A DNA stretch of 64,000 bases from a virus. Taxonomy: Duplodnaviria; Heunggongvirae; Uroviricota; Caudoviricetes; Demerecviridae. The notes under the pieces were generated by a model that ran no database searches, was not told where the DNA came from, and was given only the letters and a program-made list of their open reading frames with translations. The stretch is taken from IMG/VR virus record IMGVR_UViG_3300016480_000208. One strand, 5' to 3'. Position 1 is the first letter of the stretch, and every line of letters begins with the position of its first letter. The translations under genes and the position numbers were made by a program. Shown piece after piece: positions 17,798 to 62,609 of this stretch.

Positions 17798-18370
17798 TCA
17801 TAGATTACGGTTCCAGTTTAGAAAACCATAGGCACATATCGCAAGTATCGGTAGAAACTACCAACTATGCAACACCCCTATAATACACACCCCAAGCCAC
17901 TATACCCAGCTACTGCTTAACCCATTAGCCATAAGTACAGAAGCCACCGATATACCTCCCAAATATTGAAGCTCTACCGCGGTATAAGGTACGTCATGCT
18001 ATGACATGAACATACCTAAACTTAGGAGTCCAAGGGTTAGGTAGCAAATGTACCCTGCTAAGTAGATCCAGCCGTACCCTTGTAAGTTTCTAGGAACGTA
18101 ATCCCTGGTTGCCTATATCTAGCAGCAGGAACCAAATACTATGTTCTATATGGACTACGTAAGAGACGCGGAGTACTACTACTAAACCACACCCTAAACC
18201 TACCCAATGAAGAAACCCAGCTTATTAAGCCTCTAAATGAGAAACATTATAGCTGCGAAAGGTAGCAAGGTTATATACTGGTGGCCTTCCTATAGTACCT
18301 AGGTAGTGATAAGCTAAACTACTAAGAACTAAAGTTCTTTCATAGTTATTTGTTGCAGAAAGGCAGTCAT
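17797..18370 (-). CDS. TAG-dense multi-pass membrane protein (holin-like), ~191 codons with ~19 in-frame TAG.
   Basis: Manual translation from RBS gggagga + ATG (cat at 18368-70) to TGA at 17797-99 has no TAA or TGA. The TAGs fall inside hydrophobic helices. Confidence 0.5.
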
Positions 18371-25880: not shown

Positions 25881-26087
25881 TTATGCTTTCTTGATGAACT
25901 GAACAATCTCTGCTGGGGTACGTAAGACGGTGCCGTCTTCCCTGATAAGAGCAGGAGCACTGCGAATGCCGTACCGCCTAGCAACCTCAATATCAGTTTC
26001 AATATTGAAATCAATATTCTTGCTGACTAGCTCGTTATAAAGTGCTACGCAGGCTTTGCAATTTTCAGTCTTAAACAATGTGATCAT
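25881..26087 (-). CDS. Glutaredoxin / NrdH-like redoxin.
   Basis: 68 aa with a CKAC active-site motif. Confidence 0.55.
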   Translation of the reverse strand: MITLFKTENCKACVALYNELVSKNIDFNIETDIEVARRYGIRSAPALIREDGTVLRTPAEIVQFIKKA

Positions 26088-26089
26088 TT

Positions 26090-26738
26090 CTACCTCTCAA
26101 GTGACCTTCTGGACTACTAAATACGTGAATTAAAATGCTAAACTAACTCTGAACCTTTTAACTGCTGAGTTATTTTTGGGGCCTGTTGCCATAAAACAAG
26201 AATCACCCCAGAATAAACCCCACTTAGGTCATATAGTGGTGCCTAGTAAAAGTATGCCTAGCCAGCAGCTTCAAAGTACTGAGTAGGTACTGGTAGGGGC
26301 TGCTAACTTAGGTCATCAACTACTGAGAAGGCCCCCTATAGGGATTTATCCTGCAAGTGGTTTATATATGCTACAGAGCTTTTGTCGACACTGTAGTTGT
26401 TTAGTTGGTCTATTTTTACTGGCAACACCCCTTCTGAGGCTCTAATAGATATAAAGTTATTAAGGAATTGTGGCTCATATTCCCAAATTATAACCTGGTT
26501 CTAGTTTAGCTAGGTTAGCACACTAATGGCCTCCTAGCGCTACTAGGCAGGGAACTACTTCTCCCTTAGCTGCTCCTGCTTCTACATAACGGTTTCCGTA
26601 CTTAGATTTTTAAATCCTTCCAGAATCTCCGTCTGGTAGGCTACTACCCAGTAACTAAGTACACCAAGCAGAATAGTACCGGCACGAAGAGCTAGAGTTT
26701 TAGGGTCTTTTATATCCTGTAAAAGAAGCTCTATCATA
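26090..26738 (-). CDS. Hypothetical protein, ~216 codons with ~17 in-frame TAG codons. Its TGA stop overlaps the ATG of the downstream redoxin gene.
   Basis: Manual translation; no TAA or TGA in frame for ~650 nt. Confidence 0.45.
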
Positions 26739-26887: not shown

Positions 26888-27714
26888 TACTCTAGGGATT
26901 GCAGATAATCTAGGGGATTATCATACTCGCCAAACAGGCCATGCCTGGCCATGACGGCATAAATATATTCTGCCTCTTCATCCTCCAGGTCTACAGATAG
27001 AACCATTTCCTTAACGGTATCAATATGCACCAGCTCACAATTTTCATATACCCCAGCTTGTACAAACTGGGTCCACACACCATAAGCCTCTTCCTTAAGA
27101 GCCCCTATAACTGCACGAGCCCACATAGTGGTAAAGATACGATTATTAATATCCTGCTCTTCTGGCAGCCAAATGGTAGCGTTGGTGCTAAAGATTTGAG
27201 AAATTTCTTCCTTGCTCAGGAAAGGCAGTTGATATTCCTCAAACAGCGCATAACACCAATCCAGTGAAGCCTGAACATGCTTTATGGGCTCCTCACCAGA
27301 ACCTACGGAACCCATGGACATGTTATGGGACATGATAATTGTGTTCCGTACTGGGAGAATGACATCACCACACAACATAGTCAGTGTGTGAGCCGAACTG
27401 GCTCGACCATACGCTTCTGTAATTACAACAGCCTGACTGCGCGCAATAGCCGAAGATAGGTGGGATGCTGTGGTTACGTAGCCACCATCACCATTTAATA
27501 CAATAGAGACTGTATCTTGGCTACCAGCAGCGTACAGAGTATCTAGAAGCGGTACCAAAGGTTGATAATCTTCCAGAGCAGAGGGCATGTATGCTCGGTA
27601 GTTAGTGACACCCACACGTTGTGGGTCTTGACTAGCTGTGATAATTACTGACGGAATAGTCTCAGGGCTTACCATGGCATATTGCTGCTGGTCGTTGTTC
27701 AGTTTCTTCATCAC
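26888..27714 (-). CDS. Hypothetical protein (possible serine-peptidase-like fold).
   Basis: 275-aa ORF followed by a hairpin terminator at 26852-26882. Confidence 0.4.
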
Positions 27715-28378
27715 AGGTTATTCTCCACGAAATTAATAATGTTCTCTTTACCAAGAGATTTATCATTTATAAAGGTAAGGTCAAAACTAACCCCGTTTAG
27801 GGAGTTTTCAGAGATATGACTGTCTTTTATGCTTTCTTCCGGGTTTATGATATTTAGCATAACAAAATCCATAGATTTTAGCAGCCTAAACTCGTCTGGG
27901 AACCTAGTGTCATCTACCACAATAGTACACCCCGCATTTTCTATAATAGACTATTGCATCAAATCTACCCAGAAGGTATCTCTGATTCTATGGCGGAAGA
28001 ACTCTGTGCCCACTTTTTGCAGTAGCTCCCTGCCACTTATCGAGTCTACTATAAGTCCTGATTCTTGAGCCCAGCATATAAACTTATTTGTAGTCTAATC
28101 GACTTTAAGAGCTCCAAGTAGTCCCATAAGGGCATACTCTACGCTTTGCCTAGAGATGCCTTTGGTCTTGACGTAGGTGTTATCCTTGTCCCCGTAAAGA
28201 GCTTTGTGCACTACTTCTGGTTCGTTTACCTGTGATAGAATCTCAGTCAGAAAGATTTTCAGAGGCTAAGCAAAGCTTAAAATAACGGGGTCAGTGTTGG
28301 GGTATTTATGCAGGAACTACTTTGCTACGGCACTTTTACCACAACCTTTACTACCAGATAGGCTAATCTTATTTGCCA
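27711..28378 (-). CDS. Deoxynucleoside monophosphate kinase (T4 gp1-like) with 5 in-frame TAG codons.
   Basis: Manual translation MANKISLSGSKGCGKSAVAK*FLHKY... The P-loop aligns to the T4 dNMP kinase N-terminus. The listed ORF 27711..27920 is only the C-terminal part. Confidence 0.55.
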
Positions 28379-28800
28379 TAATAATGGGCTCCAGTCCTTA
28401 AAGTTACTTGCTTCATGTACTTCATCCTATGTTTCCCAAAATAGACCTACCCGTTAGTGGGGTCGTCTACTTCGTCATTTAACACCAAAGAAGCTATACG
28501 CAGTGACTCTTGCCACGCTGCCTTATTCTTTGGTGTTAGATTACTGTAGGAATCTCTTGTCCATGTAAACTAATGTCTTTTATATACAACCTTGGTTAGG
28601 TTATTTGAGAAATCTGGATGGTCGACTCTATTTAATGCTACAAACGCAGTAGCAATCTTGTCTATTTTTGTTGCACCTCTTGCTTCGTAGTATACAACGC
28701 AAGATAGGGCTTTGAGTTCGGAACGTGCATACTTACACGACCCTGCCTAGTTACCTCCAAAGCTGAGCATAAGCCCAAGCACTAAGATTAAATGTTTCAT
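28367..28800 (-). CDS. Secreted cell-wall hydrolase (SleB / Hydrolase_2-like); candidate endolysin with 3 in-frame TAG codons.
   Basis: Manual translation MKHLILVLGLMLSFGGN*AGSC...VVYYEARGATKIDKIA...NRV... Its stop overlaps the dNMP kinase start. Confidence 0.45.
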
Positions 28801-30949: not shown

Positions 30950-32071
30950 TTAAAGCCATTTATTTACGGCGTCTGCCATTTCTTCTTCCGAATCCATTCC
31001 AGCGGAAGCTACTCTATAAGTAAGAATCTGGGTTTCTTGCGGGGCAACTTGCAACTTACTAAGGTCTATGAACTTCTCTACCCAGGGAATTGGGTTAGAC
31101 TTAGGTGTGTTAGCCAATGCTTCTAGCTGAATTCCCAGAGGGGCTAAAGCGTTCTTGGTGACGTAAGAGCTATAGCGTTTTAGGATGTCTGCGCTTAGCC
31201 CAACCAATGTAGTGCCTTCTGGCAATACATAATCAGCCCAGTCATTTTCTATTTCCTTAATCTGAGTAAACAACTCAATTACGTACCCAGAATCTACTAC
31301 TTCAGCGTACTCCTCGGGCCACTCTTCCTTCAGAATTGCTAGAATCGCCAAGTCTGCCTGTGCATGTAAGAACTCGTCTTTGATAATGAGAGTAAGTATA
31401 TTGGCGATACCCGGAAGAATATCTTGGTTTGCCAGCCCAAAGTTACATGCAAAAGAGGTATAGAATAGAACCTACTCAAGAGCGTATAGCGCGAAATATG
31501 CTTTTACAAGCAAGATTCGCAGGCAGTACTCTACTTCTTTTAGCTTCGGAAGGCTGTATGTTTCCTTGTTCTGTAGGTAGCTCAATCCGAGCCCATACAG
31601 TTCATCAAACACCGAGGAAACCTAGCTAACCCTACGAGCCACAAAGGGGTTATTGCGAATCTCGTTCTTGATAGCCTAATCAGCGTCTGGCATTACTGAC
31701 TTGATAATATGAGTGTATGAGCGAGAGTGCAAGCTTTCAAAGTATCCAATCTGGATTAGCAGACCCTCTAGTTCTTCATTAGAGCACAAGGCTAGCAGCA
31801 CCATCCCAGGAATTCGACCAGCAAGGGAATCACCCAATACTTGGAACGCCAAATTCTTAATACACAGCTGCTTGTTCTACTCTGAAAGGGTAGGCCACTG
31901 AGCAATATCCTTGTGAAGGGGTATCTCGGTTTCCAACCAAAACTGGGAACGCTGCTTTAGGGCAAAGTCTTCAAGACTTTTATACTTTACTGTGGTATAG
32001 TCTTGGAGTCCCAACTGCTCCCCAAGGAATAGAAAATCTTTTCCGTCTTTTTCTAGGTTTAGTAGATTCAT
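30950..32071 (-). CDS. nrdB: Ribonucleotide reductase small subunit (class Ia NrdB) with 4 or more in-frame TAG codons.
   Basis: C-terminus SNPIPWV...QVAPQE and the iron-site helix YALE*VLFYTSFACNF align to E. coli NrdB (NALEAIRFYVSFACSF). The ORF track splits it into 30950..31351, 31877..32071 and more. Confidence 0.8.
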
Positions 32072-32267
32072 TTAGTTCTCCAAGTAATTATTTGTAAACG
32101 CCAGAGAAGAAAGGGTACTGAACCATGTCAGCACCCCATTTCTCAAACTGCTCTTTATGTCGTTGATCAATCTCTACGATGTACCCATACTTCCATACAC
32201 CAATCACTTTGGCAATCCAAGAGTACCCAAATACTACCTAGTGAACTTGTCTGCCAATCATGTCTGT

Positions 32268-34519
32268 CATAGGGTACAGCCTCCACCAGAACAAGATTCT
32301 TCTTTCATAGAAGAAGAAACAGAGCCAGTGTCAGTGTTGCAGTAGTACATGGTCTTCAAGCCATAATGACGTGCCATCTACCAAATACCCAGAAGAACCT
32401 TCATAGGAATCTTTTCGTCTGGGTAGTCAGAGTACCTGTGATACTCGTTGGTACTGATTGCTTGAGTCATCCAACGCTGGACTACCGCCATAGCCTTAAT
32501 ATACTCAAATTGATCAATATCATAGGCTACCTGATAGCTGGAAAGTGAGGTAAACTCTGTAGCTTTAGGGGCTACGGTCACGATAACGTTTCCACCAGAA
32601 CGTTTGGTAGTTACGATAGAGCGGATAGGTTCAACACCATTGGTTGCCCCCAGCAGTACTGAGGAGGACTCTCCAGGCATACAGGCTGTGAAAGTAGAGT
32701 TACGAACACCGTAGAGCTTCATCTCCCTTCGCAGAGCTTCCCAATCTAACTTAGTAGGGGTAGTTACTAGGGAATCTGAGTTTTTGTTAATCAAGTCAAC
32801 TGGTAGTATGCCGTCACTCATTTTAGTACGTTGATACAGGTCACAAGCCCCACGCTCTTTAGCCAGTCGGATAGAAGCCTTAACAATACTATAAAGCATT
32901 TGTTCGCCCTACTCATTGATAAGATCACGAGCTTCCTGCCCTTCATATGACAGACCGTTTTCTGCCAAATATCCCGCTAGGTTAATAAAGCCAATAGCTA
33001 TATTCCTACGCTGCTTAGCCAGCTACTTGATGGCAGGGAAGGGGATGTCCTGCAAATCAATAATAGTGTCAATGAATTTCACTAGGAGGTACATAGATTT
33101 ATCCCAGTCAGTGATTCTGCCGAGCACCGCGCCACCAAGGTTACACAGACTTACTTCCCCGTTTTTCGGGTCTGGATTAGCCTCATACAAGCCTAGAGGG
33201 CTGTTGAAGGGTTTGGTAGGCTGCACTATTTCCATACAGAGATTAGACTGACATACAGGGTCTTTGAAGAGTGACTAGGCATTAGTATTGTAAACATCCT
33301 GCCAATACATTCTACCACTCTCTAGACGACGTTGCATGTAGGTATGTACCAGTTCCGTTGCTGGGATATAGCCAGACTATTTAGCCTCACTGTAAAGTTT
33401 GCGGAATAGCTCCAAATTGTCACTATAGAAAGCTGCGTACATATCCTCATGTCCATACAAGGATACTAGTTTTACGTTTTCACCCTTAGCGTAAAGTTCG
33501 TGTAGGATTCTGTTGTCCTGTAGTGCGTAGTCTAGGAACTCAATACGCTTGTCTTCTGATACCCTTTGAGACTTTAGGTTCAACAAGTCAGCAATTTCTG
33601 GGTCAAAGAAGGGATAAAATACAGTAGCGGAGCCGCCCCGGGCTTGTTGAGTAAGGGACTTAGTAAGCCTATCTACAGCTCTGTAGAAGGGTAACTTTCC
33701 TGTGTGCTAGAAGCTACCATCACGAACAGGGTCTCCAACACTCCTAGTAGTACCAATCCAACCAATACCCGCTCTGGCAGCAGTCATCTTAAAGATAACA
33801 GAGTTTGCCACATCCAGACTGTCGATAGAGTCTCCGGCCTGAATTAGGCAGCAAGATGCGAATCCTCGGTCATGGGTTCTCAAGCCCAGCAGAGGAGGGG
33901 TAGGCACGTTTACTTTTTGTAGTGAAAACTCATCGTACAAGTCTAATAGCTCTTGGATGGTCCAGTCATTACGTCTGCCCGTAGCATCTACCCCAGTAGC
34001 CATACACATACCCATATACATGAATTGTGGGGTTTCTAGGATAGATTGGGTGTTAATGTCCTTTAGCAGATACTTGTCTGCACACTGCTTTAGTCCACCA
34101 TAAGTGAACAACTCGTCCCTTGAATGGTCAATATGGGCTGCAAAGGCGCACATCTCGTCTAGCGAATACATGGTTGAGAAGCGCTGCCATTTGTTAGTAT
34201 TCTCCATATGTTTCACGAAAGCTAACAAATTGGGCGGAGCATATCTACCGTGTACGGCCTTACGCAGCTGAGCTAAGTAGAGCTTTTTAGCAGGTACATC
34301 ATAAGAGTATTCTTCGCTGATTAGGGACTCTGCCGCGTTTATCAGGCTTTTTTGCAGTTGTTCTGAAGTACACTCTTCTGGCAAATTACCAATTGCGATC
34401 CCAGCAATTGCTGCCCAAGAGGCCTCTTCGCCCTAACAGGCCCACTCAGCCCATTGGTTTAACTTGATAGGGTCAAAGGCTTCTTTTGTTCCGTCTCTTT
34501 TTACGATTGTCTTGATCAT
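32268..34519 (-). CDS. nrdA: Ribonucleotide reductase large subunit (class Ia NrdA) with 6 or more in-frame TAG codons.
   Basis: ATP-cone start MIKTIVKRDG, active-site SNLCMEI and the C-terminal tail ...GLKTMYY...CSGGGC. Fragments 32378..32899, 33023..33235, 33377..33586 and 33707..34384 are all co-linear when TAG is translated. Confidence 0.8.
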
Positions 34520-35115
34520 TTAAGTATCCAACTGATTTGGGGTTGGTAAGGATATCCCACTTCCCAAACAAAAATAGCATAATTAACAGCCGAGGAAGCA
34601 CCGTCATCAATGTCGTCTTTAAGACACTTAATTCGATAGGAGAATATATCAACGTGCTTTAGCTGGCCTACAGTAGAGAAGAATTTGCCCCTGGCTTGGG
34701 AGGTTAAAAAGTCTAGGCGCAGTAGCATGATAACTTTTCCACCTTTGGTGTCCCTAAGCAAATGCAGTGCATGCTCTACGTATTTTTGTGCCTGCTTATA
34801 TGGAGGGTTTGTTATAATGGTTGTTACTGGCTCACCGTAGTACATAAAGGGTAGTTTTTCTGTATTAAAGAAGTCTACCACTTCTGTAGGGAAGCCTTTG
34901 CTGTTTATGTAGCCATAGTCGTAGATGTCCGAGGAGTAAACTGAGAAACCCTACTCTTCTAGTGGGATAGAAACTTTTCCTGTACCAACTGAAGGCTCCC
35001 AGAGTATCTCTCCAAGGTTTAGGTACTTTAAAGCATGTTGTACGAAATCTGGTGGAGAAGTGTAGAAGTCTAGTGCCTACACATCACTTCTACGGATAGT
35101 ATTAGCACTGGCCAT
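34516..35115 (-). CDS. N6-adenine DNA methyltransferase (Dam-like) with 2 in-frame TAG codons.
   Basis: Motif I EPSVGTGK and motif IV NPPY. Confidence 0.55.
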
Positions 35116-35337: not shown

Positions 35338-36135
35338 TTAATCCCAGAAATCAACAAAGAACTCTGCGGTCTCTGAGCGCACGGACTTAAGCAGTTCTAT
35401 TACAGCTACTGGCTTACGTTCGTATGTTTCAAGCTTTTCAAGCAGCTCTACTAGAGGAGAGTCACCAGGAAGGTCACACTGCTTCTAGTCGCCAGTAAGC
35501 ACTAGTTTACCAGAAGAACCTAGACGCTGAGTTAGACACTTTAGTGCCTCTCTAGACAGGTTCTGTGCTTCATCCGCTAAAACAACGGTAGGGATATGGC
35601 CACCAAGAGTTCTACCTCGCATGTGCTCTACAGCCAGAACTTCAATAGCCTCTGTTTCTACTAGTTCCTTTAGTTTGTTAGGATTTACGTAATAACTAAA
35701 ACCATCAAAGTATGGTGCTATCCAGGGTTTCATCTTCTCGTAAAGAGAGCCTGGCAGAGACCCAAGACTAGGGCCAAGTGGTACGTTAGGACGAATTAAG
35801 ATGATTTTTCCGATCTTACCTTCTAGGAGCTGTTGGATGTAGTACGCAGATGGGAGGAAAGTTTTCCCTGTACCCGCTGGGCCAATACCTACAACCACTG
35901 AAAAGTTTTTCAGGGTATTTAAATACTTACGTTGCTCGTCATTCTTGGGAGTAAGTTCGCGGGGCGCTCTTACGTCCTGCTTCTTGCTACCATAGCTGGC
36001 AGGGAAAGAAGTGACGTTGTTATGGCTGCTATGGGCTGGGCCTGCCTACTCGTCTGTATTCAGAGCTCCTTGGCGTGCAAGACGACGAAGCTCTTTACGA
36101 GAAAGACGTTGTGGTTCCGCAGCTGGTTTTGTCAT
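35338..36135 (-). CDS. phoH: PhoH-like ATPase with 2 in-frame TAG codons.
   Basis: Walker A GPAGTGKTF and PhoH-like VLADEAQN. The listed fragment 35485..35898 plus TAG-separated flanks are co-linear. Confidence 0.55.
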
Positions 36136-36229
36136 ACGATGTATCTCCGAGGCAAAGGTGGATTAGAAGTTAGTTTTCTCTCTCACCTATATAGTATAGC
36201 AAAAATGAAGGTATGCTGCAACTATTATT

Positions 36230-37400
36230 TTAAATCCGGTAGGGCATCTACTAGTTGCTCTATGGAATCAAAATACTTCATAGGGAATCTCTTATCCCTA
36301 TACACTTTAGCTCTAGTTTCCTAGTGCCGGTATCCAGTTCCACCAGATAAAGCTAGGTCTATAGCAATAGGTGTGCGCTTACCGCTCATAAGTCTTTGTA
36401 TGCGTCCAATTAGCTGGGCTATTAATGACTAGTTATCACTACTAGAAGTGAGTATTAGACAAGACAGTATACTTAGTGATAGACCTTCCGAGAATATAGA
36501 AGTAGTGGATACTACGCCCTAGTACTTACCTTCTTGTACTTGTTCCAATATGGTAGCCCTGTTTTTCTCCTCGGATATAATCAATGCCCACTTCTTTCCA
36601 GTTACCTCTTCTAGCACACTGGCAAGTGTTCTGGAGAAATCCACACGGTCTGAGGTGATAAGTGGTATGTGGCCACTAAAATGGGCCTAAGCCTACAGGC
36701 AAACTATCTCCTTTAGATAAACATCCTGGCTATATAGGTCTGTAACCTAGTTGGCCCAACCACCCGGCTGTGCTGTTAGGTTAAACTTCTACTTGGAGTA
36801 GGTTCTGAGAACTATAGGAATCATCACGTTCTCTTCCTTCGGAATTACAACGTTCTTGCTGAACCACCCGGGGAATAAAACGTGCTTACCGTCTTTACGG
36901 ATTAAGGTACCACTAAGGCCTAACTTAATACCGGCAAAACTATGCACTAGTACTTTTTCAAAGGTAGATGCTGGGCAATGGTGCACTTCATCCATAATTA
37001 GTAACCCAAATTCCCTACATAAGGATTGGGCATGCTTTTGTACGGTTTGTATGTTACCAATTACTATAGGAGTGGAGATATCTACCTGGCCACCGCCGAT
37101 TATAGCTGGTGTAAAGCCAAAATGTTTTCTAACCTCTTGCACCCACATGTCTCGAATATCAGTAGTCGTGGTGACTACCAGCGTCTTTAATTGCAATTTG
37201 TGGGCTATAGCTAGCTAAGTAATAGTTTTACCAAACCCAGGTATTGCGTTAATAATCCCGTTTAGCTAAAATCCACCTATCTTAGGGTAACTAAGGAACT
37301 ACCCCATAGCCATACTCTGAGACTCCCTCAATACAAATAGGGGGTCTGGGATTTTCTACGAAACCTTAGAAGTTCTATCTACAAACTCAAACTGACAACC
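36230..37400 (-). CDS. SF2 helicase (DExH) with in-frame TAG codons; boundaries approximate and it may extend toward 37915.
   Basis: Walker A IPGFGKT just upstream of fragment 36789..37196, which carries DEVHH and SGT motifs. Several TAG-only interruptions. Confidence 0.4.
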
Positions 37401-38146
37401 CTAACCTGTTACTCGTTTGCACATGCCAATTATGGTATCTATGTGCCCAGAAGGGAAGGAGTATGCCTGTTTTGAGGTAGAGATAGTCTTAATCTGTAGC
37501 TAGATTGGCTGAAACTTCTGATTAGGGCTCTGCTTGGGCAGTATAAACGTAAGAAGCTCTACCTACTGCTGATGCTCTTCAGGCGTAAGCCGCATATATA
37601 CTTGGTCTGATATAACCACCTTTCGTGGCTAACTTAAAGCTTCTTTCTACGTGAACAATTCTACGTGTCTCCAAAATCTAAAGGCATATAACACATTGCC
37701 CCTAGCTTAACTAGGTAAACATATAAGTAGCCCCTAGAAGCAACTACACGCTCCAGGCCTCCTTCTGGGAGTTTGTACCACATTTCTACCTTACTATCCT
37801 CTAGCTGGTTTGCCTTTATAATTTTAGCCGGCACTACGTCATAGTAGGTACTTTTTACCCACTTAAATACTCTGCCTTGGTTATTTATAAAGTTTAGTGT
37901 TCCACTATTCGCCAACTCCTACAAAGTATTGCATATCTTGTGCAATGGGTACAGCCTATATGATGTCTTGTTGTTTACCTACAACCAGAGACGCCTTTCG
38001 GTATAGGTCTAACCGGGGGCGTTCTAGTCGTCTAGTAAGTATTTCTCCATAGCTGAGGTTATGTACGTTTTTGGCCCATCCTTTTCTATGCTTACATACT
38101 ACCTTAAAGGAAATAGGGGCAAATTTGCCCCTATAAAGTTCTTCAA

Positions 38147-40587
38147 GCTCATAGTGCAGCTACGGTTGGGTACTGTTTCTGCAACTTACCACAAGAGTAG
38201 TCGAAGGAACCACCGTCCTCGGAGTCAGAATCAACGCCCATAGGCGCCCCTGGGATCATTAGTCCACGGTCTTTCTGTATATTACGTACAACAAGCTCCA
38301 AGTATTCTTCTACGCAGGACTCATGAACTTCTGCTACTACTGAGTCATGTACCATACAAAGGATTTGAGCATCCAGCTTACGGGCAGTAATCTCTGCTTC
38401 TGCGTCAATAGCCCCCAGCAGCAGGATATCAGAAGATGCCCCTTGGATGATAGCGTTAAACCCAGAACGCAGCTCTTCGCCGATAACACCACGGTCACTA
38501 GAGGTGATGTTACGCAGACGGCGCTTACGACCAAAGTGGCTATAAATGAAGCCGTGGTTCAGAATCTGGTTGTGGCATTCGGTGATCCACTGCTTCAAAC
38601 GAGGGAATCGCTTGAAGTACACAGCGATGTATTCTTCTGCCTTTTCCTTGGTGCAAGGAACGTATGGCTCACCTGTTTTTAGGCTCTGCTCAAGTAGCGC
38701 TTCGTTAACCGCTTGAGCTACTTTTGCTGGGCCAGAACCATACAAGATACCAAAGGTAATCGCTTTAGCTGCTTGACGCAAGGCTGGGAATAGCTTTTTA
38801 ACCTCTTGAGGCTCGCAAGACAGCCCGAATACCATGTGTGCAATGTTACTGTGGAAGTCAGGATACTTAGCAGGGTCTCTAGTCATATTGATAAAGACTT
38901 GTTGCAGGCCTTTATCACCAGACAGGGCTGCTGCTACCCAAACTTCCGCAGTGGTCATATCCACCGCCACAATCCTGTAACCCTTTCTGGCTTTGATACA
39001 CCCTTTTACTAGTGCATCATCACGAGGAAGCTGTTGCAGGTTTAGGGTACCACTGGAGGACAGACGACCAGAGGTTGTGGTGTGCAAGTGGAAGCCAGTA
39101 CGTAGACGACCATCGAGGTCTACGTGATCCAGTGCTTTCTCGATGTAGGTGTTTAGCAGCTTAGAGAACTTACGGTACTCTAGGATTGCTTTAGCAATAC
39201 TGGAATCTTGGTCTGATGCCAGTTTTTCTAGAGCTTCCGCGTTGGTAGAATCCTGCTTGGTATCAGTCATGATACCTGTAGGTGTCAACCCTTCGTAATC
39301 AAACAGCAGTGTGCGCAGTTGAACAGGAGAGGCTGGGTTAAACGCGGAACCTTTATCAAGTTCGTACCTGTTTACGCTGTCGAACTGGTAGATTCGTTCT
39401 TGTGCTTCACGAATTTTTTCTGATACTACGGCACTTGCTTCTTTAAGCCGAGAAACGCTGAAAGGTACACCACGAGACTCGATACGCTGCAAGAAGCGGT
39501 TGCCCGGAATCAAGATGTTGGTGTAAAGAGAGTTCAGTTGTGGATTTTTACGAATAAGCGGCAAAAACTTATTGTGCAGACGCAGGGTAGCGTCAGGGTC
39601 TTTTGCTGCGTATACCTTAAGGATGTCCCAAGGGATAAGGTCGTAAGTGAAATCCTCTTTCTTGACATTATGCAGGGTGCAGTATGACTTCTTAAATTCT
39701 TCCAGCTCTAAGTCGTAGTCACCCAAGTCAGTGTAGTCGATGGCCAAAGACTTCAAACCATGCGTACCTGTACGTTCATCAAGTGTATAATGCTGTAACA
39801 TGGTATCGTGCATACGGTTTTCATCATATGCCTTGTTAAAGTCGATACCAAAATGGTACTCAAACCAATGTTGGTCAAACTTCAAGTTATGGAATACAAT
39901 GTCCGCCGGAGAATCAAAGATTTGTTGCACCATACCAATCAGTTTAGTATCAAACAAATCAGCGTGGATATACCTCCCATAACCAGGGGTGTCACAGAAG
40001 CACAAACCTAGTGGGTAGCCTTTACGGGCGTACAAAGCTGTGGTTTCCGAGTCCATACCAACCGCAGAACTTTTACCAGATAGGACGTTTTGCACAACTT
40101 GACTAAGGTAGCTTTCCGCTTCTTTGTAGTCCGTGATACCTTCCCAGCTGCCTTCTGCTTTTGCTTGCCCAGAAACCAACAACTGACGAATCTTGGAAAT
40201 TGTTTTTTCCATTACCGGCTTGTTCTCTGGCCGGAAAGAGAGCACAGCCGGAGAAATAGACGCAATAAACCTTGCATTAGCCCAGGCATCTTTGGGAGGG
40301 GCCATAAGCCCAGTGTAATCTGTTACTGAGGTAACTCTACTATACTCTTTCAAAGCCTCAGAACCTACTAGAATAGTGAAATCGTACTCCATAGGGTTAA
40401 ACTGAATGTCGATGTTCTTCTTGGTCGGCTTCTTGATAGAAGGGTCAGAACATAGATGGTAAACATCTACTGGGATAGTCCCATTGAAGTAAATGTTAGA
40501 ATAGTTCTGTCGGTTAGGGCTTTTATCTACTACGGCAATTTTAGGTACTTTGGTCATATACTCAGGTCTCCTTAAACCTCTGTCCAA
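38147..40587 (-). CDS. pol: Family A DNA polymerase with 3'-5' exonuclease domain (T5-type).
   Basis: 812-aa ORF with a PolA palm (RRxxKxxNFGxxYG-like RQAAKAITFGILYG) and an N-terminal exonuclease. No in-frame TAG; ends TGA. Confidence 0.85.
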
Positions 40588-40589
40588 TC

Positions 40590-41435
40590 AATCTCATCAA
40601 TAAACTTCTTCAAGTAGTCTACCTCGGGCTTACTAAGTCCTCCAGGGTCTCCACCTTGTGGTAGTATATGGTTCTATACATATACTCTGAAGTGCTTAGA
40701 TAGCACTTTTGACAAGTTCTGAGCAGCAGCATTACCTGCGTCGTCATTATCCATCAATATCACTACTTTTTTCGTATCTGCGGCCACTAAGGGTAGGCAC
40801 TTTTGGTCAACTGTTCTGTGGGTAACAGTTGAGGCACCAAATACCTAAGTCACGTTAGATACCCCTTTGTCCCTAAGGTTGGCAACATCAAATATGCCCT
40901 CCACTAGAATAGTTACCCCATTACTCTGCACAGCAGGATAGAAGGGTATTTTTGCACCATCTGGATAGGCCAAATACTTTGGCTTTAAGTCGCTATACAT
41001 AGAACGCTAGATCACCGCACATAGGTTCCCCGTTACTAAGTCTGTAATCGGGAAACACAGTCGCCCCTCCCAGTTAGAATGAGTGAACGCCTCTAGTTTC
41101 TTGTAGGTATCCTACGATATGTCTCTGTAGGTCTACGCAAAAGGCTCAATAGACGGCGGCAAGGTTATGCCCACTGAGAAAATGTTAAGCTCCTGTAATT
41201 TTCTCTTGAATTGTCGTATCTTTGGGGAAACTTTTGGTAGTTCCACACCCAAGTACTCATGAATCGACTTACCTTTGAAGCCACACGCATAGCAGTGATA
41301 TACCCCTAGTTCTTTGTCAATGTACATTGATGGTGAAGAGTCTTCGTGTTCTGGATTTAAGCACAGCACCAGATAGTCCTTACCTTTTTCCTTAAAAGGG
41401 ATGCCGCGCTATTCTAATAGCTCTTTTACAATCAT
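40590..41435 (-). CDS. DnaG-like primase (zinc-binding plus TOPRIM) with in-frame TAG codons.
   Basis: MIVKELLE*RGIPF...CYACGFKG zinc ribbon. The listed ORF 41133..41369 ends on TAG and the frame continues. Confidence 0.5.
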
Positions 41436-41507: not shown

Positions 41508-42867
41508 TTTACTCATCTCCTTGTTCTTCTTGTGGCACTTTGACTATGCTTTGTGGGATAATTTTCATGTAGTCCCACGACATATGGGTCACGAAGTTGA
41601 TACCTGCTGGGAGGTTACGCAACTTAGCTACTGTAAGTGTCAGAACTGAGCCAGATTTATTAATGGTGAACTACATATCCACCTAATCTAACAAACCTTT
41701 CTACATACGAGTGGCCCCGTTTTCATCTACTTGATACGGTGAAATAACTAGAACTTTTTGCTTCCTGGCTATTGTGTTCTTAAGCATAGTTGCTAACTGT
41801 GTTTGAACCTTCCAATCCAGCCTATCAAGAGTTTTTACGCCCTCAAGTATAAGCTGGTTTACATAGTCAACAATTACCGTGGTTACTAGCCCCGGGTATT
41901 TTGCCTTTAATGTCGTTAGTACTAGATCAATGGTGGAGATTTTTAGATTCCTATCATCAATTACTACTATCGGTAAAATCTGTTTTAGGTGTTGCTTGAA
42001 ATACGTTTCGTGGCTTTGGAATAGGTCCCTCGTAGGAGGCTCTTCTAGTGCTTTTAGTTGATCCATTAAGTAATCAAAACCACCTTCGTACTGTGCGGCT
42101 TGAGAAAGCTACAACTGTACTTGTTCAAAGTGATTCATAGTACCATTACGTAACGCGGAGAATCTAACACCACTAGCTGTCTACCAAAATCTCTGGTATG
42201 TTTCCTCGGCGGTCATTTCGATAGTGCAGTACGGGGCTATTTTACCAACCATCCAGTGGTGGGCACAGATGTTAATACAAAGTGCTGATTTACCAACTCC
42301 TCGGTATCCACCTAGAAGAATAAGCTCTTCTTCTTTTCCTCCCAGAAACTCCATATCCCAGCGCTCGGATAACCCAAGGGTTGAGAACTAGGTTTGGGTT
42401 TCTTCCTCCGCACGAAACATTGAAATTTCGTTACCGTAGAATACTTTGTCAGAACTGTCTATCTCCTCTTCCACTAGCATCTAGATGGCCTAGAGTTCCT
42501 CTACTATCTCCTGTGGCCCTAACAAGGGTAAGTTGTCTGCAAACTTGTCTAACTTCTCGATAGCGATATGCTGGATGTGCTCGGCTTCTAGTTGCTCCAA
42601 CTATAGGGAGATTGGTACGTCCGGTAGCTCCACCTTTTCAAGTGCTAGTACCTAATGTAGGACGGAAGAGTTTCTGGAATTAAACAACTTTAACTCTTCA
42701 AAAGAGGGGACTCTGGCATGTGCTTCGTAGAAGTTATTTACTGATCGATATACGCTGGAGAATAGGCCCGAGAAGTACTACGATTTCAGCTTTTCCATCT
42801 AAGCTAGCTTTTGCTCCTGACTATCAGACTATAGCAAAAGCCCTAGAGTTGTGCTTTGTAGTGACAT
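41508..42867 (-). CDS. DnaB-family replicative helicase with ~11 in-frame TAG codons.
   Basis: Walker A GGYRGVGKSAL. The listed 41701..42066 fragment ends on TAG, and reading through reaches TAA at 41508. Confidence 0.5.
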
Positions 42868-53483: not shown

Positions 53484-55511
53484 ATGTTGAAATAGGGTTC
53501 ACTTCAAAAGAGTAATGGCCGCCTTGAGCAGTGGGATGATTTTAAGCTGATTAAGGCAGTTAATAAAGCTGCGGCAAGGGCTGGGGAGACTATTGACTTC
53601 GATAAGCTAATTCCGCTAGTAAATAATAGCACTTCTGTTAGTGAGTTATATCATAAACTAATGATTGCTTTGCAACTATTGGGATACGAAAAAACCGCAG
53701 AAAGCTACTCACAATACCGCTCCTATAAAAAGGAGTTCGGTGGCTTGCTAATGGAAGTCTGGGAAAAGACGCAGAAGGCATTGGCGTATGGTGATAAGAG
53801 TAATGCTAATGTCGATTCGCTAATTATCAGTTCTAAACAATCTTTGGTGCGTGGCTATGTAAGTAAGGAATTGTATAAGCACAACTTCCTGACAGTAGAT
53901 GAGCAAGAAGCTATCCAAGATGGGTATATCTATATCCATGACCTAGACCAGTTGCTTTATCCGCAAATCAACTGCTGCTTGTTTGACGTAGGTGCTGTAA
54001 TGCGTGGTGGCTTTGAAATGGCCAATACTAGGTACACTGAACCTCAGTCACTACGTACTGCCCTACAGCTTATCTCGGATATTGTTCTATGCGCTAGCTC
54101 ACAACAGTTTGGAGGCTTCACAGTACCAGAACTTGACAAAATTCTGGTTCCGTACTACGAGAGGTCACTAAGTAAACATTTAGATGATGCCTATAAATGG
54201 CACATAGAAGAAGCCTATGCCTATGCTGTAGAAAAAACAGAGGACGAACTAAAGCAGGGGTTACAGGCTTTTAGCCTGAAGACTAACACAATTCCGTCTT
54301 CCAGGGGCGACTTTGCTTTTACTACTGTAACCTTCGGGCTATTGGATAACGAAGATACCTATGATGTGCAAAAGAGAATCGCAACAGCTATTCTACGGGA
54401 TAGAATGTCCTACAGCACTCCTCCTGTTTTCCCTAAGCTAGTATATCTATATAATGAGGGGACTAACGACGAGGAACTATTTGATCTAGCTATTGAGTGT
54501 TCGTGCAGGTGTCTATACCCTGACTTCCTGAGTTTGAGCGGGGAAGGTTATGTGGCCGACATGTACCGTAAACATGGCAAAGCAGTCAGTCCAATGGGCT
54601 GTCGTGCATTCCTGTCAGAAGGTTGTGGGTCATTTGTGGGTCGTGCCAACATAGGGGCTGTATCCTTAAATCTCCCGCTAATCTATAAAATGGAAGGAGA
54701 TTTTTACGAGAACCTACTGACGTACTTGAAGATGGTTAGAACTCTACTAGCCAAACGCTACGAGTATGTTGCTAAAGCTCCGTGCTCTACTAACCCACTG
54801 GCCTTTACTCAAGGTGGGCTTATGGGAGGTACTAAGAGCCCCAGTGAACCAATAGGTGATATAGTAAAACAATTCACAGCAAGTTTTGGTATCACTGCAC
54901 TTAATGAGCTGAACATGTTGCATGAGGGGAAACCTCTTCATGAATCAGATCAAACCTTTGTCACAGAAGTAGTAGACTTTATTAATAAGTTTATTATGTC
55001 GGCGAGAGAGGAAGATGGGTATCTATATGCTCTATATGCCACCCCAGCTGAGAGCCTGTGCGGGACACAAGTACAGCAATTCAGGGCAAAGCACGGGGTC
55101 ATCCCAGGAGTCTCTGATAGGGAGTATTTCACAAACAGCTTCCACATGCATGTATCCGCCGAGATCAACCCATTTACCAAGCAGGACTTAGAGTTTAATC
55201 TATTCCACATGGTTAATGGGGGTCATATTCAGTACACGAGGTTAGACACTGATAAACCCAATGTTGTGAAGGGTGTAATTCTACGTGGGATGATGATGGG
55301 GTTCTATTCTGGAGTTAATGCCAATAAGTGTTTCTGCCAGGATTGTGGACACTCAGCAAATAGAGAGTTAATTGAATGTGATAAGTGCGGCAGTACAAAT
55401 ATTGCTGAAATAAACCGTGTATGTGGGTATTTGGGGTATAGCAAAATATCTGGGGACACACGGATGAACTCTTCTAAGATGTAGGAAATTAGGGATAGGA
55501 GAAGTATGTAA
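53484..55511 (+). CDS. nrdD: Anaerobic ribonucleotide reductase NrdD. The true start is ATG at 53484 and codon 4 is TAG. The terminal TAG at 55482 is read through for 9 more codons to TAA.
   Basis: Upstream of the listed M there is an in-frame ATP-cone (MLK*GSLQKSNGRLEQWDDFKLIKAVNKAAARAGE). The C-terminus has a Zn ribbon and the glycyl-radical RVCGY motif. A consensus promoter lies at 53428-56 and an RBS ggaggt. Confidence 0.85.
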
Positions 55512-60363: not shown

Positions 60364-60369
60364 ATTTCT

Positions 60370-60455: not shown

Positions 60456-60461
60456 ATTTCT

Positions 60462-62388: not shown

Positions 62389-62417
62389 TTGCTATCAAGG
62401 TATTAACTTGATATAAT
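62389..62417 (+). promoter_or_regulatory. Strong promoter upstream of the suppressor tRNA (TTGCTA, 17-bp spacer, extended tgaTATAAT).
   Basis: ttgcta 62389-94 and tataat 62412-17. The same module is at 61265-93 (before tRNA-Lys UUU) and 59527-55. Confidence 0.7.
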
Positions 62418-62446: not shown

Positions 62447-62521
62447 GGGGCATTAGCTCAATGGGAGAGCGGCGGACTCTAAATTCGCTGGTTAACGGTT
62501 CGAGTCCGTTATGCTCCACCA
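62447..62521 (+). tRNA. Amber-suppressor tRNA, anticodon CUA, on a tRNA-Ala-like body (G3:U70, A73). Predicted to decode TAG as alanine.
   Basis: Full cloverleaf: acceptor ggggcat/atgctcc+A+cca with the G3:U70 wobble; D-arm tagctcaatgggagagc (E. coli tRNA-Ala-like); anticodon arm gcgga-ctCTAaa-ttcgc; variable tggtt; T-arm aacgg-ttcgagt-ccgtt. A promoter lies 30 nt upstream. Confidence 0.85.
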
Positions 62522-62533: not shown

Positions 62534-62609
62534 GGGGCTATAGTTTACATGGGTAAAACCGCTGCCTTGCAAGCAGCAGAATTCGGTTCAATTCCGAATA
62601 GCTCCACCA
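62534..62609 (+). tRNA. tRNA-Ala (UGC).
   Basis: Acceptor ggggcta/tagctcc (G3:U70), A73; anticodon gctgc-ctTGCaa-gcagc; T-arm ttcgg-ttcaatt-ccgaa. Confidence 0.8.

What the first reader, a model, noticed from the sequence alone, without database searches (positions are those of the whole stretch)
30950..34519. In-frame TAG is translated: nrdA and nrdB (and many other genes) are continuous only through amber codons
The class Ia RNR genes are split by the ORF track into 4 and 3 or more pieces. All pieces are co-linear in one frame and separated only by TAG. No TAA or TGA ever has to be read through. Conserved segments lie on both sides of the TAGs: SNLCMEI with the catalytic Cys and Glu, GLKTMYY plus the C-terminal CSGGGC tail, and the iron-ligand helix YALE*VLFYTSFACNF in NrdB. 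The same pattern holds for nrdD, dNMP kinase, PhoH, the DnaB-like helicase, the primase, Dam and the spanins. This argues that TAG is a sense codon throughout this genome (a stop-codon-recoded phage), not pseudogenisation or sequencing error.
Basis: partly seen in the sequence, partly recalled or inferred. Interest (0 to 1): 0.95.

Follow-up and report, generated by a model that had tools for sequence, protein, structure and literature searches.

The report
Phage reads TAG stop as alanine
This T5-like Aeromonas phage really does translate the TAG stop codon inside many of its genes, and the evidence points to alanine, inserted by the phage's own alanine-type suppressor tRNA, not the glutamine that annotation software assumes.

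Summary
nrdA (32267-34519, minus strand) is one 750-codon frame with 7 in-frame TAG. nrdB (30950-32071) has 4. Neither has an in-frame TAA or TGA. Both align end to end with E. coli R1 and R2. All 11 TAGs recur in two independent isolates.

The window is a Shenzhenvirus (T5-like Demerecviridae, host Aeromonas). Cook et al. 2024 already listed two genomes of this genus as "translation table 15" in a supplementary table. Recoding itself is therefore not new.

What appears new is the amino acid, alanine rather than glutamine:
- The only tRNA with a CUA anticodon (62447-62521) carries the AlaRS identity set G3:U70, A73 and G2:C71. With the anticodon masked, its nearest relative is a tRNA-Ala.
- Residues opposite TAG in non-recoded T5-like phages are Ala three times more often than background. 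At outgroup-invariant columns they are Ala in 51-64% of cases, like GCN codons.
- Close relatives swap TAG with GCN.
- TAG is enriched in hydrophobic membrane segments, where Gln is depleted.

TAG use follows the T5 infection programme. It is absent from pre-early genes, patchy in early genes, and makes up a third of alanine codons in late genes. No release-factor gene was found. Proteomic and aminoacylation tests are still needed.

The parts
32267..34519 (-). nrdA, class Ia ribonucleotide reductase large subunit. 750 codons, 7 in-frame TAG (34433-35, 33707-09, 33377-79, 33275-77, 33023-25, 32909-11, 32378-80), terminator TGA.
30950..32071 (-). nrdB, small subunit. 373 codons, 4 in-frame TAG (31877-79, 31676-78, 31622-24, 31472-74), terminator TAA. 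The TAG at codon 200 follows the iron-ligand Glu in YALE#VLFY. That column is Ala 97, Ser 8, Gly 1 in 106 distant homologues.
62447..62521 (+). tRNA with anticodon CUA, the amber decoder. It has G1:C72, G2:C71, G3:U70, G4:C69, A73 and G20, ends in CCA, and is the best-scoring tRNA in the window (67.7 bits). Read here as tRNA-Ala(CUA).
62534..62609 (+). tRNA-Ala(UGC), 12 nt downstream of the CUA tRNA. Same acceptor signature (GGGG...CUCC, A73).
62389..62417 (+). sigma-70-like promoter match TTGCTA-17-TATAAT with a TG extension, 30 nt upstream of the CUA tRNA. This is a consensus match only.
36225..37595 (-). D10-type helicase, 14-16 in-frame TAG
41509..42867 (-). D6 DnaB-like helicase, 13-14 in-frame TAG
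40572..41435 (-). primase, 6 in-frame TAG
35338..36135 (-). PhoH-like protein, 2 in-frame TAG
34516..35115 (-). DNA methyltransferase (NPPY motif, phrog_799 at 2e-46), 2 in-frame TAG
27711..28379 (-). dNMP kinase, 4 in-frame TAG
26084..26737 (-). T-type holin (PF11031, 1e-22), 15 in-frame TAG (about 6% of codons)
17798..18370 (-). 190-aa orphan with several hydrophobic segments. 17 TAG (9% of codons), including three in a row.
56359..58527 (+). 722-aa orphan with 36 TAG (5% of codons). Only 26% identical to its Akh-2 counterpart.
53484..55511 (+). nrdD, anaerobic ribonucleotide reductase, 2 in-frame TAG
38149..40557 (-). DNA polymerase. No TAG in about 800 codons, in contrast with its neighbours.
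48230..51157 (-). origin-binding helicase. No TAG in 975 codons.

Best explanation
The window comes from a Shenzhenvirus, a T5-like phage of Aeromonas, in which UAG is used as a fifth alanine codon.

Proposed mechanism:
- The phage carries one tRNA with anticodon CUA in its early tRNA cluster.
- That tRNA has the acceptor-stem features that alanyl-tRNA synthetase recognises: the G3:U70 wobble pair, A73 and G2:C71.
- AlaRS does not inspect the anticodon, so the host enzyme should charge this tRNA with alanine.
- The charged tRNA then reads UAG in competition with host release factor 1.
- TAA and TGA remain the only terminators.

TAG use tracks the T5 infection programme. Pre-early genes sit on the DNA that enters the cell first, before the tRNA gene is inside, and they have no TAG. 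Early genes are a gene-by-gene mosaic. Late structural genes all use TAG, for about a third of their alanines.

The TAGs in nrdA and nrdB are recent additions in this sub-lineage.

Shown here: TAG is sense, the tRNA has alanine identity features, and homologue statistics fit Ala.

Inferred, not shown: charging by host AlaRS, early expression of the tRNA, and out-competition of RF1 by tRNA abundance or an unknown inhibitor.
For: TAG is a sense codon.

TAG encodes Ala:

(1) tRNA features. The CUA tRNAs of the window, AhSzw-1, Akh-2 and TS3 all have G1:C72, G2:C71, G3:U70, G4:C69 and A73, as do all tRNA-Ala(UGC) of these phages and of T5. The window copy differs from the others by 5 compensatory stem pairs while keeping the G:U wobble. 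With the anticodon masked, its nearest neighbour among 138 tRNAs is pVp-1 tRNA-Ala(UGC) at 75-78% identity. All other tRNAs are at 68% or below.

(2) Residue opposite TAG in T5 orthologues. It is Ala in 18/72 (window), 75/309 (Akh-2) and 75/327 (TS3) positions, which is 3.0-3.5 times background. Ala is the best-fitting assignment. It beats Ser by 15, 51 and 44 log-likelihood units and Gln by 33, 94 and 90. At well-anchored positions Ala reaches 30-39%. Gln- or Ser-coded positions align to Ala only 4-10% of the time.

(3) Outgroup-invariant columns. Where T5, pVp-1 and a Klebsiella phage all agree, the residue opposite TAG is Ala in 7/11, 36/65 and 34/67 cases. GCN codons give 56-63% Ala. Gln appears opposite TAG in 0/11, 1/65 and 1/67.

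(4) Close relatives. 6 of 28 codons that replace TAG between the window and AhSzw-1 are GCA or GCT, which are 2-3 bases away from TAG. In nrdA/nrdB, five TAG sites alternate with GCN, two with Ser and one with Gly.

(5) nrdB codon 200. That column is A 97, S 8, G 1 in 106 distant homologues.

(6) Hydrophobic segments. TAG is enriched in TM-like windows (ratio 3.5 in the window, 1.4 in AhSzw-1), like Ala and Gly. Gln has ratios of 0.18-0.33.

(7) The T5 GenBank record notes that T5 tRNA-Ala with an amber anticodon is an effective suppressor.

Temporal pattern.

No RF1, RF2 or PrmC homologue was found.
Against: - There is no protein-level or aminoacylation evidence.
- Overall, only 22-25% of TAG sites face Ala in T5, against about 40% for GCN codons. 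Either TAG sits at more variable sites or decoding is not purely Ala.
- Gln is mildly enriched opposite TAG (1.4-1.65 times). From prior knowledge, some E. coli amber suppressors are partly mischarged by GlnRS because of U35.
- G3:U70 also occurs in 4 non-Ala phage tRNAs here (Trp, Cys, Arg), although none of them has A73.
- There is no explanation for how genes with 36-81 TAGs, or with three TAGs in a row, escape RF1. No release-factor gene and no +4 context bias were found.
- The strict absence of TAG from polymerase and the origin-binding helicase, next to TAG-rich neighbours, is not explained by timing alone.
Confidence: 0.85

Rival explanations
1. TAG encodes glutamine (genetic code 15), as in crAss-like and Lak phages and as assigned automatically to this genus.
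For: Cook et al. 2024 list MG676224 and MG676225 as table 15. Public protein sets translate these genes with Q at TAG. Gln is 1.4-1.65 times enriched opposite TAG, and CAG is one mutation away from TAG.
Against: - The Gln model fits worse than Ala by 33, 94 and 90 log-likelihood units.
- Gln faces TAG in only 0/11, 1/65 and 1/67 outgroup-invariant columns.
- The CUA tRNA lacks the acceptor features seen in the phage tRNA-Gln genes (U1:A72, G73) and instead has G1:C72, G3:U70 and A73.
- TAG is enriched in hydrophobic segments, where Gln is depleted.
- nrdB codon 200 is never Gln in 106 homologues.
- The table-15 call comes from a gene caller that offers no Ala option.
Confidence: 0.04
2. Decoding is ambiguous or partial. 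TAG is read mainly as Ala, but with a sizeable share of another residue (Gln or Lys by mischarging) or of termination. Under this view TAG acts chiefly as a throttle on protein yield, not as a clean fifth Ala codon.
For: - The Ala match at TAG sites is lower than at GCN sites.
- TAG is rare in the most abundant virion proteins. In Akh-2 it is 0.2% of major capsid protein codons and 1% of tail tube codons, against about 5% in tail fibre and tape measure.
- No release-factor countermeasure was found.
Against: Genes with 36-81 TAGs, or with three consecutive TAGs, could not give full-length product unless each TAG is read very efficiently. The residue statistics show a single dominant residue, with Ser, Ala's usual substitute, second.
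Confidence: 0.08
3. TAG encodes serine or another small residue.
For: Ser is the second-best assignment and the second most common residue opposite TAG. TCG is one mutation away from TAG.
Against: Ser fits worse than Ala by 15-51 log-likelihood units. The CUA tRNA is a 75-nt class I tRNA with no long variable arm, whereas the phage's own tRNA-Ser genes are 85-91 nt. Ser-coded positions align to Ala only 7-10% of the time, against 30-39% for TAG.
Confidence: 0.02
4. The TAGs are real stops: decaying pseudogenes, split genes or assembly errors.
For: GenBank records of the genus annotate these genes as fragments.
Against: - Only TAG interrupts frames, never TAA or TGA.
- Homology is continuous and full-length across every TAG.
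- 181 of 194 TAGs are shared with an independently sequenced isolate.
- Essential genes such as terminase, portal, tape measure and helicases carry many TAGs in four cultured, plaque-forming phages.
- A cognate CUA tRNA is conserved in all of them.
Confidence: 0.01

Closest known systems
TAG-recoded gut phages using genetic code 15 (crAss-like, Lak and related clades; Borges et al. preprint 10.1101/2021.08.26.457843; proteomic validation in PMC9523058)
   Same: The host uses the standard code. In-frame TAG occurs in conserved genes and the phage encodes a CUA suppressor tRNA. Recoded codons are biased towards late, structural and lysis genes, with standard-code-compatible genes expressed first.
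   Different: - The amino acid appears to be Ala, not Gln. Borges et al. state they saw only TAG to Gln and TGA to Trp in phages whose code differs from the host's.
- No release-factor or synthetase gene is present.
- TAG use is mosaic gene by gene, not in code blocks.
- The phages are cultured, lytic and T5-like, on an easily grown gammaproteobacterium.
Automated "translation table 15" call for Shenzhenvirus genomes MG676224 and MG676225 (Cook et al. 2024, PMC11210395, Table S1)
   Same: Same genus and same phenomenon. Coding capacity rises from 56-58% to 83-86% when TAG is treated as sense.
   Different: That is a one-line prediction from a gene caller that can only choose between tables 11, 4 and 15. 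It does not analyse the tRNA, the amino acid or the gene distribution. The Gln assignment conflicts with the evidence here.
Laboratory amber suppressors built from tRNA-Ala. The G3:U70 identity experiments of Hou & Schimmel and of McClain & Foss (1988) are cited from prior knowledge. The T5 tRNA-Ala anticodon-swap result is cited from the T5 GenBank record.
   Same: A tRNA with G3:U70 and a CUA anticodon is expected to be charged by AlaRS whatever its anticodon, and to insert Ala at UAG. The T5 record notes that T5 tRNA-Ala with an amber anticodon is an effective suppressor.
   Different: Those tRNAs are engineered. Here the tRNA is natural, conserved across a phage genus, and hundreds of codons depend on it.
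Other natural reassignments to alanine: CUG to Ala in the yeast Pachysolen tannophilus, and UAG to Ala reported in some chlorophycean mitochondria (both cited from prior knowledge, not checked here)
   Same: The logic is the same. AlaRS ignores the anticodon, so a tRNA-Ala with an altered anticodon can capture a codon.
   Different: Those cases are a eukaryotic nuclear genome and organelles, and the change applies to the whole genome. Here a virus imposes the new meaning on a standard-code bacterial cell during infection.

Membership tests
Stop-codon-recoded phage (TAG read as sense) | In-frame TAG inside conserved genes, with homology continuing on both sides | tested here: met
   NrdA and NrdB align full-length to E. 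coli R1 and R2, and to Pfam models, across 7 and 4 TAGs. The same holds for about 30 other genes.
Stop-codon-recoded phage (TAG read as sense) | Only one stop codon is read through; the other two still terminate | tested here: met
   No TAA or TGA occurs inside nrdA or nrdB. The 76 genes end in TAA (58) or TGA (17), and 68 of the 76 ends coincide with the orthologue's end.
Stop-codon-recoded phage (TAG read as sense) | Coding density is restored when TAG is treated as sense | tested here: met
   Stop-to-stop ORF coverage rises from 61% to 90%. The literature gives 56-58% rising to 83-86% for sister genomes.
Stop-codon-recoded phage (TAG read as sense) | A cognate suppressor tRNA is encoded | tested here: met
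   One tRNA(CUA) lies at 62447-62521 and scores 67.7 bits on Rfam RF00005. It is conserved in AhSzw-1, Akh-2 and TS3.
Stop-codon-recoded phage (TAG read as sense) | Peptides spanning TAG positions are detected | not testable with these tools
   This needs LC-MS/MS of virions or infected cells.
Genetic code 15 (TAG = Gln) | Homologues carry Gln at positions aligned to TAG | tested here: not met
   Gln appears in 0/11, 1/65 and 1/67 outgroup-invariant columns, against Ala in 7/11, 36/65 and 34/67. The Gln model fits worse than Ala by 33-94 log-likelihood units.
Genetic code 15 (TAG = Gln) | The suppressor tRNA resembles tRNA-Gln (weak 1:72 pair, G73) | tested here: not met
   The CUA tRNA has G1:C72, G3:U70 and A73. 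The phage tRNA-Gln(UUG) has U1:A72 and G73. tRNA-Gln is not its nearest neighbour.
tRNA-Ala (substrate of alanyl-tRNA synthetase) | G3:U70 wobble pair in the acceptor stem | tested here: met
   The pair is present in all four CUA tRNAs. It is kept as G:U while 5 other stem pairs changed in a compensatory way.
tRNA-Ala (substrate of alanyl-tRNA synthetase) | Secondary identity elements A73, G2:C71 and G20 | tested here: met
   Read directly from the sequence: acceptor GGGGCAT/ATGCTCC, A73, and D loop AATGGGA.
tRNA-Ala (substrate of alanyl-tRNA synthetase) | Actually aminoacylated with alanine | not testable with these tools
   This needs an in vitro charging assay or acid-gel/MS analysis of tRNA from infected cells.
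tRNA-Pyl (the label given by ARAGORN) | The atypical tRNA-Pyl architecture (short D loop, 3-nt variable loop), plus pyl genes | tested here: not met
   The tRNA is canonical, with G18-G19, a 5-nt variable loop and the top Rfam tRNA score. The ARAGORN label follows the anticodon only. A search for pyl genes was not run.
Shenzhenvirus (Demerecviridae, T5-like) | Nucleotide identity and synteny with the type members | tested here: met
   The window is 92-96% identical over 8 kb to AhSzw-1, AhSzq-1 and AhP_Mru1. Gene order matches T5.

The most novel reading that the evidence does not exclude
Shenzhenviruses use a natural UAG to alanine code. A cultured lytic phage imposes it on a standard-code bacterium using only one tRNA-Ala(CUA) that exploits the host AlaRS. 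The T5 two-step DNA injection acts as a built-in gate, since pre-early genes are TAG-free. As far as the literature searched here shows, this would be the first stop-to-alanine reassignment described for a virus or a bacterial translation system. It would also mean that current "table 15" translations of these genomes are wrong at about 1-4% of residues.
Probability: 0.6. Interest if true: 0.85.

Novelty: new variant of a known kind. Interest (0 to 1): 0.72.

Why it matters
- Genetic-code evolution. Phage stop-codon recoding is thought to be limited to TAG to Gln and TGA to Trp when phage and host codes differ. An alanine case would show that any anticodon-blind synthetase can be exploited, which bears on how genetic codes evolve.

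- Experimental access. These phages are cultured, lytic and grow on Aeromonas hydrophila, and they are close kin of the well-studied T5. Questions that are hard to address in uncultured gut phages could be tested directly here. These include how RF1 is beaten, whether recoding times late-gene and lysis-gene expression, and what happens without the tRNA.

- Annotation. Every public record of the genus is either fragmented (standard code) or mistranslated (Gln), so protein sequences, structure predictions and phage-therapy safety screens are affected.

- Synthetic biology. A natural, efficient Ala amber suppressor carried by a phage is relevant to virus resistance of genomically recoded organisms.

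Tried and rejected
- Alignment of the 11 nrdA/nrdB TAG sites to E. coli R1 and R2 alone. The residues opposite TAG were H, V, G, A, E, R/F, Q/K, H, T/R, T and L. This was uninformative because most of these sites are variable, so I moved to genome-wide statistics.

- First tallies against Akh-2 and T5. These included out-of-frame and antisense ORFs, because homologous DNA aligns in all frames. I redid them after keeping only the best-scoring frame at each locus.

- BLAST of the tRNA against E. coli genomes. This gave only weak partial hits to tRNA-Asn and tRNA-Arg and was not informative.

- Scans of IMG/VR and JGI metagenomes for the tRNA anticodon arm. These recovered only AhSzw-1 itself plus unrelated CUA tRNAs, so there is no wider distribution data.

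- L055, the nearest non-recoded lineage, used as an outgroup. There were too few sites (28-31) to be decisive. Ala still came first or a tie for first.

- Nucleotide following TAG. No bias was found (p=0.34), so there is no sign of selection for weak-termination contexts.

- Amino-acid composition balance against T5. This gave only weak support: r is about -0.33 between TAG fraction and Ala deficit.

- Search for RF1, RF2 and PrmC homologues. None were found.

- Possible bias from the BLOSUM X-A/S/T score of 0. I checked this using only positions with no gaps within 5 residues and well-matched flanks. The Ala signal became stronger.

- Pfam and PHROGs scans of the most TAG-dense orphans. There were no hits, apart from the holin and the methyltransferase.
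Full report
**What the window is**

An 8-kb stretch around the finding is 92-96% identical to Aeromonas phages AhP_Mru1, AhSzw-1 and AhSzq-1. These belong to the genus Shenzhenvirus in the family Demerecviridae, the T5-like phages. Gene order matches T5. The window also contains a block of 15 tRNA genes at 60277-63101.

**Checking the observation**

- On the minus strand, the frame from ATG at 34519 to TGA at 32267-32269 is 750 codons.
- It has seven in-frame TAG and no in-frame TAA or TGA. The stop upstream of the start is TAA.
- nrdB (30950-32071) is 373 codons with four TAG and ends in TAA.
- The read-through NrdA aligns over residues 5-749 with E. coli R1 residues 7-760 (E=5e-137). NrdB aligns over residues 11-368 with R2 residues 14-370 (E=6e-59).
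- In Pfam, read-through NrdA covers positions 1-522 of the 523-position barrel domain in one stretch, plus the all-alpha and ATP-cone domains. The largest fragment covers only positions 318-497.
- Read-through NrdB scores 149.5 bits. Its largest fragment scores 20.9 bits, which is below the family cut-off.
- At the off-frame frequency of TAA plus TGA (5.7% per codon), a 750-codon frame free of both has probability about 6e-20.
- All 11 TAGs are present in AhP_Mru1 and AhSzw-1. Genome-wide, 181 of 194 window TAGs are conserved in AhSzw-1.
- Treating TAG as sense raises stop-to-stop ORF coverage from 61% to 90%.
- 75 of the 76 genes end in TAA (58) or TGA (17), and one has no readable stop. 68 of the 76 ends coincide with the end of the Akh-2 orthologue. 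I found no sign of TAG acting as a terminator.

**What was already known**

Cook et al. 2024 (PMC11210395) mention in one sentence that reassignment appears sporadically in Demerecviridae. Their Table S1 lists MG676224 and MG676225 as translation table 15, with coding capacity rising from 56-58% to 83-86%. The paper describing Akh-2 does not mention the recoding.

GenBank records of the genus annotate nrdA as three to five fragments. Logan and ENA protein sets contain full-length NrdB of close relatives with Q at every TAG position. The underlying DNA has TAG, so those translations come from an automated code-15 call.

So the fact of recoding in this genus is on record, but only as a gene-caller output.

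**Which amino acid? Six lines of evidence agree on alanine.**

1. The tRNA.
   - The only CUA-anticodon tRNA (62447-62521) has an acceptor stem GGGGCAT/ATGCTCC. This gives G1:C72, G2:C71, G3:U70 and G4:C69, with discriminator A73 and G20.
   - The same signature is found in the tRNA-Ala(UGC) 12 nt downstream, and in tRNA-Ala of AhSzw-1, Akh-2, TS3, T5 and pVp-1.
   - G3:U70 is the main recognition element of alanyl-tRNA synthetase, which does not read the anticodon (established knowledge).
   - The CUA tRNA is 100% identical in AhSzw-1, Akh-2 and TS3, although their proteins are only about 63% identical to the window's.
   - The window copy differs at acceptor pairs 5:68, 6:67 and 7:66 and at T-stem pairs 50:64 and 51:63. 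All five changes are compensatory, and the G:U wobble is retained.
   - Of about 95 other tRNAs surveyed, four have G3:U70 and none of those has A73.
   - With the anticodon masked, the nearest neighbour among 138 tRNAs from six T5-like phages is pVp-1 tRNA-Ala(UGC) at 75-78%. The next best is at 68% or below. BLAST against all phage records gives the same picture.
   - It is the best-scoring tRNA in the window on the Rfam model.
   - The T5 GenBank record notes that T5 tRNA-Ala given an amber anticodon is an effective suppressor.

2. Residues opposite TAG in T5.
   - Using TAG-as-X translations, and keeping only the best frame at each locus, the T5 residue opposite TAG is Ala in 18/72 (window), 75/309 (Akh-2) and 75/327 (TS3) positions. 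This is 3.0-3.5 times background.
   - Using substitution frequencies taken from the same alignments, Ala is the best-fitting assignment. It beats Ser by 15, 51 and 44 log-likelihood units and Gln by 33, 94 and 90.
   - At positions with no gap within 5 residues and well-matched flanks, Ala rises to 30%, 39% and 37%. GCN codons give 46-49%. Gln- or Ser-coded positions face Ala only 4-10% of the time.

3. Outgroup-invariant columns.
   - Where T5, Vibrio phage pVp-1 and a Klebsiella phage all carry the same residue, that residue is Ala opposite TAG in 7/11, 36/65 and 34/67 cases.
   - This matches the behaviour of GCN codons (56-63% Ala).
   - Gln appears in 0/11, 1/65 and 1/67.

4. Close relatives.
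   - Between the window and AhSzw-1 (93% nucleotide identity), 6 of the 28 codons that replace TAG are GCA or GCT, which lie two or three substitutions away from TAG.
   - Within nrdA and nrdB, TAG alternates with GCN at five sites: NrdA codons 271, 415 and 714, and NrdB codons 57 and 200. It alternates with Ser at two sites, Gly at one and Tyr at one.

5. NrdB codon 200. This TAG follows the iron-ligand Glu in YALE#VLFY. The column is Ala in 97, Ser in 8 and Gly in 1 of 106 distant homologues, and never Gln.

6. Hydrophobic segments.
   - TAG is enriched in membrane-like hydrophobic windows, with a ratio of 3.5 in the window and 1.4 in AhSzw-1. Ala and Gly behave the same way (1.2-1.5).
   - Gln, Lys and Glu are depleted there (0.18-0.42).
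   - The window has 21 TAG but only 4 Gln codons in such segments.
   - The 190-codon orphan at 17798-18370 has 17 TAG, mostly inside hydrophobic stretches.

A weaker seventh line comes from composition. Per-gene TAG fraction correlates most negatively with the deficit of GCN alanine relative to T5, with r about -0.33.

**How TAG is used**

- In the 76 window genes taken stop to stop, TAG occurs 204 times against 1148 GCN codons. It is about 15% of alanine codons and more common than GCG (123). Within the parts of these genes that align to their Akh-2 orthologues, the counts are 178 and 1087.
- 44 of those 76 genes have no TAG.
- In the complete relative AhSzw-1, the pre-early region (dmp, A1, A2 and six small genes) has no TAG in about 1,260 codons.
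- All 22 late genes of AhSzw-1 have TAG, at 39 per 1000 codons. That is 32% of their alanine codons.
- Early genes lie in between and vary gene by gene.
- In Akh-2, the most abundant virion proteins use TAG rarely: 0.2% of major capsid protein codons and 1% of tail tube codons. Tail fibre, tape measure and pb4 use it at about 5%, and the holin at 9%.

In T5, the first 8% of the genome enters the cell first, and its pre-early proteins are needed to bring in the rest (established knowledge). The tRNA cluster lies in the second part. TAG-free pre-early genes are therefore what the model requires.

The nrdA and nrdB TAGs are young. Akh-2 and TS3 have none in either gene. A 90%-identical relative from an SRA run (L054) has four in nrdA. 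The window and AhP_Mru1 have seven, and AhSzw-1 has eight. The nearest lineage outside the genus that I found (L055, NrdB 53% identical, same gene order) has no in-frame TAG in 15 genes.

**Mechanism: what is shown and what is inferred**

Shown:
- TAG is decoded.
- A single conserved CUA tRNA with alanine identity features is present.
- TAA and TGA are the terminators.
- TAG use follows the order of gene expression.

Inferred:
- The host AlaRS charges the tRNA.
- The tRNA is transcribed early. A TTGCTA-17-TGnTATAAT match lies 30 nt upstream, and two similar matches precede other tRNA blocks, but these are consensus matches only.
- The tRNA out-competes RF1, perhaps through gene dosage after replication or through an unidentified inhibitor.

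No homologue of RF1, RF2 or PrmC exists in any of the four genomes (phmmer, E up to 10). There is also no bias in the base following TAG.

**Open problems**

- Polymerase (62 GCN, 0 TAG, P about 8e-5 at the window-wide TAG share) and the origin-binding helicase (65 GCN, 0 TAG, P about 5e-5) avoid TAG completely in all five genomes examined (the window, AhSzw-1, Akh-2 and TS3, plus L054 for polymerase). Adjacent genes on the same strand have 2-3% TAG.
- Genes with up to 81 TAGs, or with three in a row, need near-complete suppression at every TAG.
- The CUA anticodon differs from UGC at all three bases, so how the tRNA arose is unclear.
- The Ala match at TAG sites is somewhat lower than at GCN sites. 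This leaves room for some ambiguity in decoding.

**Novelty**

Full-text searches found no report of TAG to alanine in any phage. Borges et al. state that only TAG to Gln and TGA to Trp were seen in phages whose code differs from the host's.

Scans of IMG/VR and JGI metagenomes with the tRNA's anticodon arm found only AhSzw-1 itself.

The alanine assignment and its fit to the T5 infection programme are a new variant of a known kind. It is well supported computationally but not yet shown at the protein level.

Noticed in passing
window 38149-40557 and 48230-51157: DNA polymerase and the origin-binding helicase contain no TAG (62 and 65 GCN codons; P about 8e-5 and 5e-5 at the window-wide TAG share). 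Neighbouring genes on the same strand have 2-3% TAG. The pattern is conserved in AhSzw-1, Akh-2, TS3 and, for polymerase, L054.
   Followed up: partly
window 62447-62521: The window's CUA tRNA differs from the copy shared identically by AhSzw-1, Akh-2 and TS3. Acceptor pairs 5-7 and two T-stem pairs differ, all in a compensatory way. This suggests an arm exchange or recombination within the tRNA cluster. The adjacent tRNA-Ala(UGC) also differs strongly from that of AhSzw-1.
   Followed up: partly
window 60277-60363 and 60370-60455: Two adjacent but different tRNA-Tyr(GUA) genes.
   Followed up: no
window 60035-60063, 61265-61293, 62389-62417: Three near-identical sigma-70-like promoter matches (TTGC..-17-TGnTATAAT, 10 of 12 positions). 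Each lies just upstream of a block of tRNA genes.
   Followed up: no
window 17798-18370: A 190-codon orphan with several hydrophobic segments. 9% of its codons are TAG, including three consecutive TAGs. No Pfam or PHROG match.
   Followed up: partly
window 56359-58527: A 722-codon orphan with 36 TAG. It is only 26% identical to its Akh-2 counterpart, while neighbouring genes are 44-85% identical, so it is evolving fast. No Pfam or PHROG match.
   Followed up: partly
window 26084-26737: A T-type holin homologue (PF11031, 1e-22) has 15 TAG (6% of codons; 9% in Akh-2). This fits the published idea that recoding delays lysis genes.
   Followed up: partly
Akh-2 genome coordinates 65226-65298 (MK318083; locus L003 15226-15298); TS3 genome coordinates 70912-70984 (OP820700; locus L006 20912-20984): A tRNA-like gene with an 8-nt anticodon loop (four-base anticodon tcgg), conserved in both phages.
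   Followed up: no
Akh-2 genome coordinates 62328-62402 (L003 12328-12402); TS3 genome coordinates 68298-68372 (L006 18298-18372): tRNA-Trp(CCA) carries a G3:U70 pair, with G73. The tRNA-Cys of TS3 and the tRNA-Arg(UCU) of T5 also have G3:U70. Whether AlaRS mischarges any of these is unknown.
   Followed up: no
L028 11386-11475; L038 5025-5114: Two metagenome contigs (63.5 kb and 18.4 kb) carry an identical serine-type tRNA (long variable arm) with a CUA anticodon. They are candidates for TAG to Ser recoding.
   Followed up: no
L055 1-14284: A contig from SRA run SRR19631088 with the same gene order (pol, helicase, PhoH, nrdA, nrdB, DHFR, thyA, RNase H). Its NrdB is 53% identical to the window's, and it has no in-frame TAG in 15 genes. 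It is the nearest non-recoded lineage found.
   Followed up: partly
L001; L002-L007; L015-L017; P0001-P0007: All GenBank records of the genus annotate recoded genes as fragments; PV190393, for example, has 377 features. Logan and ENA protein sets translate TAG as Gln. The deposited proteins are therefore either truncated or probably wrong at every TAG position.
   Followed up: yes
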